Assembly: GCA_951812955.1 (NCBI GenBank)
Contig: OX638340.1
Coordinates: 3,520,001 to 3,584,000, forward strand
Length of the DNA stretch: 64,000 nucleotides
Direction of reading: 5' to 3'
Origin: an uncultured Gemmatimonadota bacterium
GTDB taxonomy: Bacteria > JAAXHH01
The translations under genes and the position numbers were made by a program. Under the pieces are notes generated by a model, which saw only the letters and a program-made list of their open reading frames with translations, was not told the origin of the DNA and did no database searches. Shown here piece by piece: positions 12,001 to 14,005 of the stretch (positions within the stretch are counted from its first letter, which is position 1; every line of letters begins with the position of its first letter).

Positions 12001-14005
12001 CCTCGGACAGTTGACCGGCCTTGAAACTTTGTATCTGGACGGTAACGCCCTTTCGGGTCCGATACCCGCCGAACTCGGACAGTTGACCGGCCTGCAATGG
12101 TTGCTTTTGGACGACAACAACCTTTCGGGCGTGATTCCTGCTGAACTCGGACAGTTGACCGGCCTGCAATGGTTGCTTTTGGACGACAACAACCTTTCGG
12201 GCGTGATTCCTGCTGAACTCGGACAGTTGACCGGCCTGCGAAGATTGGGGCTGGGCAATAACAATTTTTCGGGGGTGATACCTGCCGAACTCGGACAGTT
12301 GACCGACCTGGGAAGATTGAGGGTGGACAATAACAATCTCTCTGGCTCGATCCCTCGCGAATTAGGTCAGTTGACAAGCCTCAGAACGCTGGATCTTGGC
12401 TCGAATCCCCTTCTGTCAGGCGCGTTGCCCGAATCTATTACGACGCTGCGACTGGAGACGCTTCTACTGGGTAATACGGCACTCTGCATGCCAATGACAA
12501 CCACATTTCGGACCTGGTTGCAGAGTATTCAGAACCACAGGGTGGCTTCTTGTCTCGAGTACACCGGCGCAACCGCGTACATGACGCAGGCCGCACAATC
12601 ACTGGCCCATCCCGTGCCGCTGGTAGCCGGTGAGGCTGCGTTGCTGCGCGTGTTCATAACAGCCGATTCGGACGTAGGAGCGAGCATGCCTCCCGTTCAG
12701 GCAGTCTTCTTCAACGGGAACCAGATCGTCCACTCTGTGGAGATCCCGGAACAGGATACGGCTGTTCCGGAGCGGTTTGAAGAGGGCGCGCTGATGTATT
12801 CAGCAAATGCGGAAGTGCCCGGAACGGTGGTGATGCCTGGTCTGGAGATGGTAATAAATATCGATACGATGGGATCACCAGGCGATGAATCGAACGTAGT
12901 CTTGCGAATACCTGAAACGGGTCGGCAGCCACTGGACGTGAGAACGGTCCCTCCGTTCAATCTGACCCTTGTACCCTTCCTGTGGATGGAAAGCCCCGAT
13001 ATTGGCGTGTTGGCGGAAACGGACGGCTTGACTGCCAACGATGACCTTTTCTGGCAAACGCGCAATCTGCTTCCTATCGCGGATTTCGAGGTAGCAGTAC
13101 GGGAGCCCGTCTGGACTGCGACGGATCCTCTCTATTCATATGAAATATTGCAGGAAACCAAGGCGTTACGGGTGCTGGACGGTTCTGACAGTTACTACAT
13201 GGGCATCCTCCGGGCAGGCGGCGGACAGGCCGAACTGCCCGGTACCTCAAGCGTGTCTGTCCTCGATGCAGAGGTTATCGCACATGAAATCGGGCACAAC
13301 ATCAATCTCTATCATTCCCCGTGTGGTGGCGCTGGTGGACCAGATCCGCTCTACCCCTATGACGACGGCTCGATCGGTTCCTGGGGTTACGATTTCCGTG
13401 ATGGCACCCTCGTCGCTCCCGGGACAGCGGATCTGATGAGTTACTGCAATCCGCAATGGATCAGCGAATATGGGTTCACCCGGGCTATGAATCACCGGGG
13501 CACAGCGCCGCGGCTGATGGCTGCCATCGCCCGATTCAGTTCGAAGGGACTGCTGGTTTGGGGAGGGGTAAATGAGGAAGGTGAATTGGAACTGGAGCCA
13601 AGTTTTGCGGTCAATTCCGGCCCATCAGTCCCCTTGCTGTCCGGACCTTACCGACTCACGGGTCAAGCCGCGGATGGCATCGTTTTATTCTCCGTAGACT
13701 TCGGAATGGCCGAACTGGGAGACGGACCGGGTAATGCCTTTGCTTTCGTACTACCAGTACAACCCGGCCGGGCGGAAAGGCTTTACACCATTACATTGTC
13801 CGGTCCCGAAGGCGTCGCAACCTTAGACAGGGACGGCGATCGCAGCGCTGCGCTGCTGTTGGATCGGGACACGGGAACAGTCCGCGGTATATTGCGTGAC
13901 TGGCTGGATCCTTCAAGCATATCACCCAGCGCACGGCCCACGCTTCCGGAGCCGGGTCTGGAGATCGTCGTAAGCCCCGGCGTTCCCGAACCGGATTCCT
14001 GGTAG
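9083..14005 (+). CDS. LRR lipoprotein 2 (1640 aa): lipobox signal, Pro-rich linker, 2x Big_2, about five LRR supermodules, C-terminal metzincin-like zinc metalloprotease domain
   Basis: VLVTCGKDSPTQ lipobox. Two near-identical Big_2 units. Repeated N-cap/LRR/C-cap modules. AHEIGHNINLYHSPCGG (HExxHxxxxxH) plus Met-turn DLMSYC. Confidence 0.8.
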   Translation: MPISYRLSTIFNFHFFYSVVAVLSFFVLVTCGKDSPTQPRPPSQPPVQPPTPVQPPPAPQPSRITITPSLVNLMAIGQTTQLTASVLDQNGQPVPGAVVAWSSSDEDVATVSGQGLVTAVSNGTATITAMAGSVSATASVRVSQTAGSVKIDPDMATLMAIGETAQLTAVVLDQNGQPVPGAVVAWSSSDEDVATVSGQGLVTALSNGTATITAMAGSVSDSALVTVLVPRTDRDVLIAFYESTGGEQWTVRSNWLSVHPLETWLGVTVNSEGLVTEIDLPNNNLRGPLTSELGYLEELATLRLNHNQLTGHIPPELGRLAKLRHLVLSSNQLTGVIPTGLGQLTGLEELLLSFNRLSGSIPGELGDLKGLKRLSLSVNELDGPVPAELGRLKQLTSLRLDQNRLSGSIPLHLGGMTVLRSMVLADNQLTGAIPAHLSSLDNLEELVLDHNRLEGGIPSQLYRLANLKRLGLAGNRLSGGVPAFLGRLTNLTHLHLFSNRGLSGVLPRSFTGLQLEELLLEGTQLCVPPDDDYEAWLDQIPVKTVTTCSNLESSVLATLYNATNGINWADNTNWLSDRPLGTWYGVTTDADGYVTGIDLTNNNLNGSVPGELAGLSKLKSLNLSTNGFLRGQLPRELINLELRELLLEDTRLCAPPDAEFQDWLQTIPARSVSTCDDLDLNSLKALFALFNDTNGPGWHDRTNWNSDAPLEEWYGITVDEDGRITELNLAGNNLSGSLPADLAALTELERLDFSDNEGLTGPLPHEWTALTLEYLRVEGTQLCAPPDTGFQAWLNEIPEYGIPECTDTRPDWADTNPEWDVLELLYNSTNGKDWTNNENWLSEAPLDQWYGIKTDEEGRVTELNLEDNNLSGELPPRLGDLIGLTSLELSFNKLSGSIPAELGQLTALETLFLDDNALSGPIPAELGQFSGLRRLDLGWNDLSGVIPAELRQLTGLTSLGLRFNNLSGVIPAFLGQLTGLETLYLDGNALSGPIPAELGQLTGLQWLLLDDNNLSGVIPAELGQLTGLQWLLLDDNNLSGVIPAELGQLTGLRRLGLGNNNFSGVIPAELGQLTDLGRLRVDNNNLSGSIPRELGQLTSLRTLDLGSNPLLSGALPESITTLRLETLLLGNTALCMPMTTTFRTWLQSIQNHRVASCLEYTGATAYMTQAAQSLAHPVPLVAGEAALLRVFITADSDVGASMPPVQAVFFNGNQIVHSVEIPEQDTAVPERFEEGALMYSANAEVPGTVVMPGLEMVINIDTMGSPGDESNVVLRIPETGRQPLDVRTVPPFNLTLVPFLWMESPDIGVLAETDGLTANDDLFWQTRNLLPIADFEVAVREPVWTATDPLYSYEILQETKALRVLDGSDSYYMGILRAGGGQAELPGTSSVSVLDAEVIAHEIGHNINLYHSPCGGAGGPDPLYPYDDGSIGSWGYDFRDGTLVAPGTADLMSYCNPQWISEYGFTRAMNHRGTAPRLMAAIARFSSKGLLVWGGVNEEGELELEPSFAVNSGPSVPLLSGPYRLTGQAADGIVLFSVDFGMAELGDGPGNAFAFVLPVQPGRAERLYTITLSGPEGVATLDRDGDRSAALLLDRDTGTVRGILRDWLDPSSISPSARPTLPEPGLEIVVSPGVPEPDSW
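9310..9746 (+). repeat. near-perfect tandem duplication of a ~180-bp Big_2-encoding segment (period ~257 bp) inside LRR lipoprotein 2
   Basis: cagccagttcccggcgcggtcgttgcatggtccagcagcgatgaggatgtcgccaccgtgagcggccaggggttggtaaccgcg... occurs twice almost identically. Confidence 0.8.
12061..12204 (+). repeat. perfect 72-bp x2 tandem duplication encoding exactly one 24-aa LRR (ELGQLTGLQWLLLDDNNLSGVIPA)
   Basis: 12061..12132 equals 12133..12204 nucleotide for nucleotide. Confidence 0.9.

What the first reader, a model, noticed from the sequence alone, without database searches (positions are those of the whole stretch)
12061..12204. Perfect 72-bp tandem duplication equal to exactly one LRR
Two nucleotide-identical 72-bp copies encode ELGQLTGLQWLLLDDNNLSGVIPA twice. 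Flanking LRR units are 80-90% identical at the DNA level. Zero divergence implies a very recent slippage or unequal-crossover event, or assembly uncertainty, so LRR number in this protein is likely variable in the population.
Basis: seen in the sequence. Interest (0 to 1): 0.5.

Follow-up and report, generated by a model that had tools for sequence, protein, structure and literature searches.

The report
Fresh LRR-unit duplication in surface protease
One 24-residue leucine-rich repeat of a large bacterial surface protease gene has very recently been copied in tandem, and related genomes show that this stretch of the gene gains and loses repeats often; this kind of repeat variation is already known from other bacterial and plant LRR proteins.

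Summary
The duplication is real but lies 10 bp to the right of the stated coordinates: 12071-12142 equals 12143-12214, 72/72 bases. The perfect 72-bp periodicity runs 169 bp. Other unit pairs average 69% identity, so chance gives about 2e-12.

It lies in a 1640-aa gene (9083..14005). The product is a probable lipoprotein with two Big_2 domains, four capped plant-type LRR modules and a C-terminal StcE/M66-like zinc protease.

The copy is bounded by three exact 25-bp repeats spaced 72 bp apart. That is the expected footprint of slippage or unequal recombination.

Across 20 orthologues (57-77% identity, Gemmatimonadota MAGs), modules 1-3 keep a fixed length. The protease-proximal module 4 ranges from 9 to 13 units.

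Four orthologous loci carry their own perfect 72-bp duplications. Two of these are on contigs of 3.5 Mb and 55 kb whose names suggest long-read assembly.

Near-identical relatives differ by 1, 2 or 4 units, only in this module. In one pair, an 11-kb contig and a 3.9-Mb contig with identical flanks differ by four units, so assembly collapse is a live risk.

Verdict: a genuine, recent, ordinary event in a repeat-turnover hotspot. At least two copies are present; the exact number here is unverified.

The parts
9083..14005 (+). Gene for a 1640-aa protein: signal peptide with lipobox-like LVTC (Cys31), Pro-rich linker, 2 Big_2 domains, 4 capped LRR modules, C-terminal M66/StcE-like metalloprotease region.
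   Evidence: ORF; Pfam LRR_1/LRR_8/LRR_4/LRR_14, Big_2, Peptidase_M66 at 23.2 bits against a cutoff of 20.6; motif coordinates.
12071..12142 (+). Copy 1 of the perfect 72-bp duplication (ELGQLTGLQWLLLDDNNLSGVIPA).
   Evidence: Identical to 12143-12214, 72/72.
12143..12214 (+). Copy 2 of the perfect 72-bp duplication.
   Evidence: The junction 'unit tail, 25-bp repeat, unit head (AATGG)' can exist only if the unit is present at least twice (inference from the sequence).
12215..12239 (+). Third copy of the 25-bp exact repeat GAACTCGGACAGTTGACCGGCCTGC (also at 12071-12095 and 12143-12167). It encodes the conserved convex-side ELGQLTGL and is the likely misalignment substrate.
11597..12493 (+). 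LRR module 4 (protease-proximal): N-cap NWLSEAPLDQWYGI, 11 units of 24 aa (first at 11660), C-cap LETLLLGNTALCMP. This is the variable-number array.
   Evidence: TRF period 72 and 216 over 11774-12319.
11783..12070 (+). Older higher-order (216-bp, three-unit) duplication inside module 4. Units at 11783 and 11999 are 90% identical.
9842..11437 (+). LRR modules 1-3, each with an N-cap and a C-cap. Their length is invariant among orthologues.
   Evidence: N-cap spacing 319/130/129-136 aa in all 20 orthologues. In module 1, 161 of 168 units find their best match in another protein and none in their own.
9270..9743 (+). Tandem Big_2 domain pair (period 255 bp, 87% over 219 nt), with exact stretches 9347-9439 = 9602-9694 and 9441-9488 = 9696-9743. 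This is a second young duplication or conversion tract in the same gene.
   Evidence: Orthologues have about 0-7 Big_2 copies.
12545..14002 (+). C-terminal region: beta-sandwich, metzincin-like catalytic domain (HEIGHNINLYH at 13283-13315), then further beta-sandwiches.
14064..18176 (+). Adjacent paralogue (1370 aa) with the same LRR-module plus M66-like architecture (HELGHNLNLYH at 17454-17486). It has no young tandem units.
   Evidence: The same gene pair is present in L001, L003, L015 and L017.

Best explanation
The identical 72-bp copies are the newest product of ongoing repeat gain and loss in one LRR array of a cell-surface protease.

The protein (inferred from sequence and model) is a lipid-anchored surface protein. 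It has a Big_2 stalk, four capped plant-type LRR solenoids and a StcE/M66-like zinc protease at the C-terminus.

In the array next to the protease, neighbouring units share long exact stretches of DNA on the convex side. Here that stretch is 25 bp, encoding ELGQLTGL. During replication or recombination the strands misalign by one unit on this stretch, through slipped-strand mispairing or unequal exchange between sister copies. The 47 unit-specific bases in between are then copied, which adds exactly one in-frame LRR.

The new rung repeats the concave-face residues Q-W-L-D-D and lengthens the putative ligand-binding surface beside the protease.

Shown: the repeat anatomy; the restriction of length variation to this array; independent perfect duplications in relatives; unit-number differences between near-identical relatives.

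Inferred: the molecular mechanism; surface location; protease activity; that the LRR array selects substrates or partners, probably host (sponge) proteins.
For: - Exact copies and the 97-nt offset-72 match.
- 25-bp repeat at 12071, 12143 and 12215. Deleting one unit leaves a normal 10-unit array in frame.
- Chance about 2e-12.
- Units of module 4 use the same codon for the same residue in 60% of cases, against 26% in module 1. This indicates recent common ancestry of the DNA, not just protein-level constraint.
- Among 20 orthologues, modules 1-3 have fixed spacing and module 4 spans 211-307 aa in steps of 24.
- 39 of 158 module-4 units have their best match inside their own protein, against 0 of 168 in module 1.
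- Perfect self-matches of 72 bp or more at offset 72 occur in L001 (174 bp, 3.54-Mb contig), L003 (89), L014 (84) and L015 (114), each in a different unit.
- Within 90%-identity clusters, indels of 24, 2x24, 2x48 and 96 aa all fall inside module 4. P0042 and P0139 differ by one unit; P0042 is on a 3.65-Mb contig and P0139 is listed on a 3.76-Mb contig, though its DNA was read from a 306-kb one.
- Protein context.
Against: - No reads and no near-identical second assembly of this gene exist in the collections searched, so the count of two and the zero divergence rest on one assembly.
- A relative shows that short-contig assemblies of this array can differ by four units from a megabase contig with identical flanks.
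- Gene conversion between two pre-existing units would leave the same pattern.
- Function is predicted only. Pfam M66 support is marginal: 23.2 bits against a cutoff of 20.6, and below cutoff in the paralogue.
Confidence: 0.72

Rival explanations
1. Assembly miscount. The unit really is repeated, but the true number is not two. It could be collapsed from three or more, or the population could be a mixture that the assembler resolved arbitrarily. Alternatively, two slightly different copies were made identical by consensus polishing.
For: - 169 bp are perfectly periodic, and k-mers are unique only from k = 98, so any de Bruijn step at k of 97 or less sees a loop. Reads shorter than about 170 nt cannot span it.
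- L002 (11-kb 'k119' contig) and L019 (3.91-Mb contig) are identical at 10,047 of 10,047 flanking bases but differ by 288 bp in the array.
- In all three pairs that are at least 99.7% identical and carry an indel, the shorter allele is on the shorter contig.
- A C4-run frameshift in the neighbouring gene shows the assembly may carry small errors.
Against: - The tail-to-head junction cannot be assembled from a single-copy allele, so at least two copies existed in the reads.
- Perfect duplications also occur on contigs of 3.5 Mb and 55 kb with long-read-style names.
- The window is at least 64 kb of contiguous sequence with no other sign of repeat trouble.
Confidence: 0.2
2. Gene conversion without copy-number change. 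Two adjacent, already existing units were homogenised by a conversion tract of at least 47 bp whose ends are hidden in the shared 25-bp stretches.
For: - The array shows patchy high identity at several offsets. Synonymous-codon sharing of 60% between units fits concerted evolution.
- The Big_2 pair shows long exact tracts within an 87%-identical repeat, a pattern typical of conversion.
- An 11-unit array is within the orthologue range, so no extra unit needs to be invoked.
Against: - Unit number demonstrably changes in this module between near-identical relatives, so duplication and deletion are known to occur here.
- The match ends exactly at the limits expected for a one-unit slippage between the 25-bp repeats.
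- The two processes share the same misalignment intermediate and are not mutually exclusive.
Confidence: 0.1

Closest known systems
YopM of Yersinia (LRR type III effector with strain-variable repeat number)
   Same: A bacterial LRR protein whose alleles differ by in-frame duplication and deletion of whole LRR units or blocks of units. Reported counts are 13, 15 and 24 LRRs, with three extra copies of LRR12-14 in one strain (PMC3469391).
   Different: YopM has 20/22-residue 'bacterial'-class LRRs, is injected into host cells and has no enzyme domain. Here the units are 24-residue plant-type, the protein looks surface-anchored, and only one of four arrays varies.
Plant extracellular LRR proteins (LRR-RLK/RLP ectodomains, PGIP, Cf-2)
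   Same: Same LRR class. The module-4 consensus LTSLDLSGNNLSGPIPAELGQLTR fits LxxLxLxxNxL(t/s)GxIPxxLGxLxx (PMC2946307). The best solved-structure sequence matches are GSO1, PEPR1 and FLS2 (E down to 2.5e-147). There is an N-terminal cap of similar style. Variation is concentrated at the concave x positions. LRR-number change by unequal crossing-over is known for plant Cf and R genes (my own knowledge, not checked here).
   Different: Bacterial host; four short capped modules instead of one long solenoid; fused to a protease rather than a kinase; caps lack the plant Cys pairs at the N-terminal side.
StcE (peptidase family M66) of enterohaemorrhagic E. coli
   Different: 14% identity; no sequence-level match to any solved structure; LRR and Big_2 N-terminal regions are absent from StcE. 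Substrate (mucin-type glycoproteins for StcE, my own knowledge) is unknown here.
Eukaryote-like repeat proteins of sponge symbionts
   Same: LRR proteins are enriched in sponge-associated MAGs, and Gemmatimonadota are regular sponge symbionts (PMC8163846). The orthologues come from Gemmatimonadota MAGs, and several record labels (ROBB21, PANK22) look like sponge-metagenome studies (the link to sponges is my inference).
   Different: That literature counts repeat families per genome. It does not describe this architecture or repeat-number turnover.

Membership tests
Leucine-rich repeat, plant-specific (PS) class | Tandem units of 23-25 residues with consensus LxxLxLxxNxL(t/s)GxIPxxLGxLxx (PMC2946307). 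| tested here: met
   All 11 units of module 4 are 24 aa. The consensus over 158 orthologous units is LTSLDLSGNNLSGPIPAELGQLTR. Pfam LRR_1 1.5e-59, LRR_8 1.6e-55. Top PDB sequence matches are plant LRR-RLK ectodomains.
Leucine-rich repeat, plant-specific (PS) class | Solenoid fold with a concave beta-sheet formed by the LxxLxL segments. | not tested
   The LRR part was not modelled. Only the last unit and the C-cap are in the model.
Variable-number in-frame tandem repeats of bacterial surface or effector proteins (YopM type) | Alleles of otherwise near-identical genes differ by whole repeat units, with the reading frame kept. | tested here: met
   Met for relatives: P0042/P0139 +24 aa, P0136/P0138 2x24 aa, P0007/P0123 2x48 aa, P0046/P0144 96 aa, all in module 4 at 98-100% identity elsewhere. 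Some of these may be assembly collapse. For the window's own organism no second allele is available.
Variable-number in-frame tandem repeats of bacterial surface or effector proteins (YopM type) | Repeat units share enough DNA identity to misalign. | tested here: met
   A 25-bp exact repeat at each of three successive unit starts, and a further 20-bp match one unit upstream.
Peptidase family M66 (StcE-like metzincin) | Zinc-binding HExxHxxxxxH motif, conserved. | tested here: met
   HEIGHNINLYH at aa 1401-1411. H295, E296, H299 and H305 of the C-terminal query are invariant in 72 sequences.
Peptidase family M66 (StcE-like metzincin) | Significant match to the family profile. | tested here: inconclusive
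   Pfam PF10462 scores 23.2 bits against a gathering cutoff of 20.6, covering only profile positions 183-252 of 306. The paralogue scores 18.7 bits, below cutoff. No sequence match to StcE among solved structures.
Peptidase family M66 (StcE-like metzincin) | Fold of the catalytic domain and its preceding Ig-like domain. | tested here: met
Peptidase family M66 (StcE-like metzincin) | Proteolytic activity on O-glycosylated (mucin-type) substrates. | not testable with these tools
   Needs biochemistry.
Bacterial lipoprotein | Signal peptide ending in a lipobox [LVI][ASTVI][GAS]C. | tested here: inconclusive
   The hydrophobic stretch ends in L-V-T-C31-GKDSPT. The Cys and the following G-[KR]-[DE]-x-P-T are conserved in most orthologues with a complete N-terminus and in both neighbouring paralogues, but position -1 is T, S, V or R rather than G, A or S. 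No dedicated predictor was available.
Phase-variable contingency locus (simple-sequence repeats) | Repeat-number change switches expression on or off through frameshift or promoter spacing. | tested here: not met
   The unit is 72 bp (24 codons). Every observed length difference is a multiple of 72 bp and keeps the frame.

The most novel reading that the evidence does not exclude
The protease-proximal LRR array may be an adaptively hypervariable specificity module. Frequent unit duplication and deletion, followed by amino-acid change at the concave contact positions, would let sponge-associated Gemmatimonadota retarget a surface StcE-like protease to changing host glycoproteins. That would be a bacterial counterpart of LRR diversification in plant resistance genes.

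Hints: variation is confined to this one of four arrays. Among young unit pairs, pN/pS is 2.85 at positions 2, 3, 5, 7 and 8 against 0.57 elsewhere. That figure is carried mostly by one locus. Without L019 and L001 my rough estimate from the counts is about 1.0 against 0.2.
Probability: 0.25. Interest if true: 0.65.

Novelty: new member of a known kind. Interest (0 to 1): 0.4.

Why it matters
For the scan, this is a real and very young structural mutation, not noise. It also marks the one part of a four-array LRR protein that turns over quickly.

Practically, it warns that LRR counts in this family cannot be trusted from short-read assemblies. An 11-kb contig and a 3.9-Mb contig of the same sequence differ by four units.

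Biologically, it points to an uncharacterised but large family. There are 4,823 representatives at 50% identity with the same C-terminal StcE-like domain, fused to plant-type LRR modules in Gemmatimonadota that appear to be sponge symbionts. If the variable array sets the target of the protease, the family would be a tractable system for studying how symbionts keep pace with host surface molecules.

Tried and rejected
- Exact look-ups of both large proteins found nothing on record.
- An exact 34-nt search for the duplicated unit in JGI metagenome contigs gave 0 hits.
- The protein-guided scan of genome contigs gave only distant relatives, at most 48% identity. The scan of metagenome contigs gave one locus at 80%. 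No same-strain allele is therefore available.
- The best protein-database relative is 77% identical.
- A sequence search of the C-terminal region against solved structures found nothing, E above 0.3.
- A literature search by sample and assembly accessions found nothing, so the sponge origin of the relatives rests on record labels and on PMC8163846.
- The pN/pS contrast looked strong, but 42 of the 68 pairs come from one locus. I do not use it as proof of positive selection.
- On/off phase variation was considered and rejected, because all changes are in frame.
- Chance similarity was rejected (2e-12).
- A second structure prediction of the LRR array plus protease was not run, because the tool returns no coordinates from which the geometry could be read.
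Full report
**Observation**

- The exact copies are 12071-12142 and 12143-12214. Each translates in the gene's frame to ELGQLTGLQWLLLDDNNLSGVIPA.
- The match at offset 72 continues for 97 nt (12071-12167 = 12143-12239), so 169 bp are perfectly periodic.
- Tandem Repeats Finder sees the surrounding array at 11774-12319, with period 72 (75% matches) and period 216 (78%).
- Flanking units are 71-79% identical to the duplicated unit, not 80-90%. Only 11783 and 11999 reach 90%, a trace of an older three-unit duplication.
- At the mean identity of the other unit pairs (68.9%), a 72/72 match has probability of about 2e-12.
- Only three exact direct repeats of 40 bp or more occur in the entire 64-kb window. 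All three are in this gene: the LRR repeat, and two tracts (93 and 48 bp, offset 255) in a pair of Big_2 domains.

**The gene**

The repeat lies in a 1640-codon ORF, 9083..14005 on the + strand. From N- to C-terminus the protein has:
- a hydrophobic leader ending in LVTC31-GKDSPT, which is lipoprotein-like;
- a Pro-rich linker;
- two Big_2 domains;
- four LRR modules;
- a 500-residue C-terminal region.

Each LRR module starts with a cap (...NW.S..PL..WYG[VI]...) and ends with L.L.GT.LC.P...W.

The LRR units are 24 residues long and fit the plant-specific class consensus LxxLxLxxNxL(t/s)GxIPxxLGxLxx (PMC2946307; consensus). The closest solved structures by sequence are plant receptor-kinase ectodomains: GSO1, PEPR1 and FLS2.

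The C-terminal region:
- It has HEIGHNINLYH (13283-13315).
- It has a marginal Pfam M66 hit, 23.2 bits against a cutoff of 20.6.
- It has no sequence relative among solved structures.
- An AlphaFold2 model built on 72 sequences is confident (pLDDT 88, pTM 0.89).
- The zinc ligands and the catalytic Glu are invariant in all 72 sequences.
- The domain family is large: 4,823 representatives at 50% identity with E up to 1e-3, at the C-terminal end of the protein in every listed match, in proteins from about 370 to 2,700 residues.

A 1370-aa paralogue follows directly (14064..18176), and a third LRR lipoprotein gene lies upstream (4602..6980).

**Anatomy of the event**

The 25-bp string GAACTCGGACAGTTGACCGGCCTGC occurs at 12071, 12143 and 12215. 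It encodes the conserved convex-side ELGQLTGL. The 47 bases between successive copies are the unit-specific part (QWLLLDDNNLSGVIPA).

Removing one unit leaves an ordinary 10-unit array in which two 25-bp repeats sit 72 bp apart. That is the substrate expected for slipped-strand mispairing or unequal exchange. One misalignment by one unit gives exactly what is seen. This step is inference; the sequence cannot distinguish slippage from RecA-dependent unequal recombination.

**Evidence from relatives**

The protein has over 6,000 database relatives, but the best is 77% identical. The two that carry source names are annotated as Gemmatimonadota MAG proteins, and synteny identifies true orthologues: the SelA-like and SelD-like genes upstream, the paralogue, and MR_MLE and an M14 peptidase downstream are shared with GCA_026706345.1.

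Length variation among 20 orthologues (57-77% identity):
- Spacing of the first three module caps is invariant: 319, 130 and 129-136 aa.
- Module 4 measures 211, 235, 259, 283 or 307 aa (plus or minus 1), that is 9 to 13 units.

Origin of units:
- In module 1, 161 of 168 units find their best match in another protein, and none finds it within its own protein.
- In module 4, 39 of 158 units are most similar to another unit of the same protein.

DNA-level recency:
- Module-4 units in the window share the same codon for the same residue in 60% of cases, against 26% in module 1.

Independent perfect duplications:
- Of nine loci with DNA, five have a perfect offset-72 self-match of at least one unit.
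- These are the window (97 bp), L001 (174 bp; two separate identical pairs; 3.54-Mb contig), L003 (89), L014 (84) and L015 (114).
- Each involves a different unit sequence and position, so the events are independent and recurrent.
- Across the window's three LRR proteins and the 120 listed relatives (123 in all), 14 carry a perfect amino-acid-level tandem LRR. All six cases in the close orthologue group lie in the last module.

**Variation between near-identical sequences**

Within 90%-identity clusters, pairwise alignment places every LRR-sized indel inside module 4:

| Pair | Identity elsewhere | Difference |
|---|---|---|
| P0007 vs P0123 | 100% | 2 x 48 aa |
| P0136 vs P0138 | 99.7% | 2 x 24 aa |
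| P0046 vs P0144 | 99.9% | 96 aa |
| P0042 vs P0139 | 98.0% | 24 aa |

Seven other pairs show no LRR-sized indel. One of them has a 16-aa indel in the PAPQPTQP linker.

P0042 is on a 3.65-Mb contig. P0139 is listed on a 3.76-Mb contig, but its DNA was read from a 306-kb contig. The two differ by SNPs, with 99.5% DNA identity upstream of the indel and 89.8% downstream. This pair looks like a true strain difference of one unit.

**A caution about assemblies**

The P0007/P0123 pair was examined at the DNA level.
- The 11-kb contig 'k119_63159' and the 3.91-Mb contig 'ctg21612c' are identical at all 10,047 flanking positions compared.
- They differ by exactly 288 bp, four units, inside the array.
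- This is either two alleles in one population or a collapse of the array in the short contig.
- In all three pairs that are at least 99.7% identical, the shorter allele lies on the shorter contig, which leans towards collapse.

For the window:
- All k-mers are unique only from k = 98. A de Bruijn assembly at smaller k contains a loop whose traversal count must be inferred.
- The tail-to-head junction can only come from molecules with at least two copies. Two is therefore a firm minimum but not a verified total.
- Whether the window was assembled from long or short reads is unknown.
- A one-base frameshift in a C4 run in the upstream LRR gene (about 6942-6945) shows that small errors, or real pseudogenisation, are present.

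**Function and consequence (inferred)**

The architecture suggests a surface-anchored protease whose LRR solenoids act as binding modules. The module that abuts the catalytic region is the one that varies.

Variability among units is highest at positions 2, 3, 5, 7 and 8, the x residues of LxxLxLxx that line the concave face.

Among young unit pairs (85% to below 100% nt identity), pN/pS is 2.85 at those positions and 0.57 elsewhere. However, 42 of the 68 pairs come from one locus. Without L019 and L001 my rough estimate from the counts is about 1.0 against 0.2. I read this as relaxed or diversifying change at contact positions, not as proof of selection.

The new unit doubles a Q-W-L-D-D rung.

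The relatives appear to be sponge symbionts. Record labels resemble sponge-metagenome studies. LRR proteins are enriched in sponge MAGs, and Gemmatimonadota are common there (PMC8163846). The link to sponges is my inference.

**Comparison and verdict**

In-frame LRR-number variation by unit duplication is well known. YopM alleles have 13 to 24 LRRs, including triplicated LRR12-14 (PMC3469391). Plant LRR genes change unit number by unequal crossing-over (my own knowledge).

The present case is a new example in an uncharacterised protein family, not a new kind of mechanism. It is not a phase-variation switch, because every change keeps the frame.

The finding is real, is explained, and is moderately interesting, mainly for two reasons. 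First, the turnover is confined to the protease-proximal array. Second, it shows how unreliable LRR counts from short contigs can be.

Noticed in passing
window 6910-6980 (C4 run at about 6942-6945): The 792-aa LRR/Big_2/CARDB lipoprotein gene (4602..6980) ends prematurely. The overlapping ORF 6910..7482 continues the expected sequence (...DDHGDTRSGATS|LALSGSVSGRIDPGTDVDYF...). One extra C in ACATCCCCTCGCG breaks the frame. This is either a homopolymer sequencing error or a pseudogene.
   Followed up: partly
window 9270-9743: The two Big_2 domains of the same gene form a 255-bp tandem repeat that is 87% identical overall. It contains exact tracts of 93 and 48 bp separated by one mismatch. Orthologues carry about 0-7 Big_2 copies, so the stalk also varies in length.
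   Followed up: partly
window 4602-18176: Three consecutive genes encode LRR lipoproteins with the same capped-module design. The pair 9083..14005 and 14064..18176 is conserved as a tandem pair in L001, L003, L015 and L017. Only the first gene of the pair has young tandem units.
   Followed up: partly
L002 5361-5864 vs L019 5416-6207: An 11-kb contig and a 3.91-Mb contig from different records are identical over 10,047 flanking bases but differ by four LRR units (288 bp). This is either a collapse in the short contig or two co-existing alleles.
   Followed up: partly
P0010 vs P0128 (linker near residue 39); window about 9185-9260: The Pro-rich linker after the lipobox also varies by a tandem unit: PAPQPTQP x2, 16 aa, between proteins 96% identical.
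   Followed up: no
window 18577-19502: Three small ORFs (83, 79 and 97 aa) each have an N-terminal hydrophobic stretch followed by a charged, helix-like tail. The third contains a 33-bp repeat x3.7 (19335-19457) encoding LEDKMDARFI-type 11-mers. Similar small ORFs sit at the same place in L017.
   Followed up: no
window 1412-4014: A SelA-like gene and a SelD/AIRS-like gene lie side by side upstream of the LRR cluster. They are syntenic with L014 and L017. The only tRNA in the window is tRNA-Met (62283-62357), not tRNA-Sec.
   Followed up: no
window 38855-39002 and 61115-61180: There are further short tandem repeats: a 22/44-bp unit x6.8/2.5, and a 9-bp unit x7.3. Their coding context was not examined.
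   Followed up: no
L020 vs L021 (about 3600-4100): Two alleles differing by one LRR are 99.5% identical upstream of the array but only 89.8% downstream. This suggests a recombination breakpoint at or near the array.
   Followed up: no
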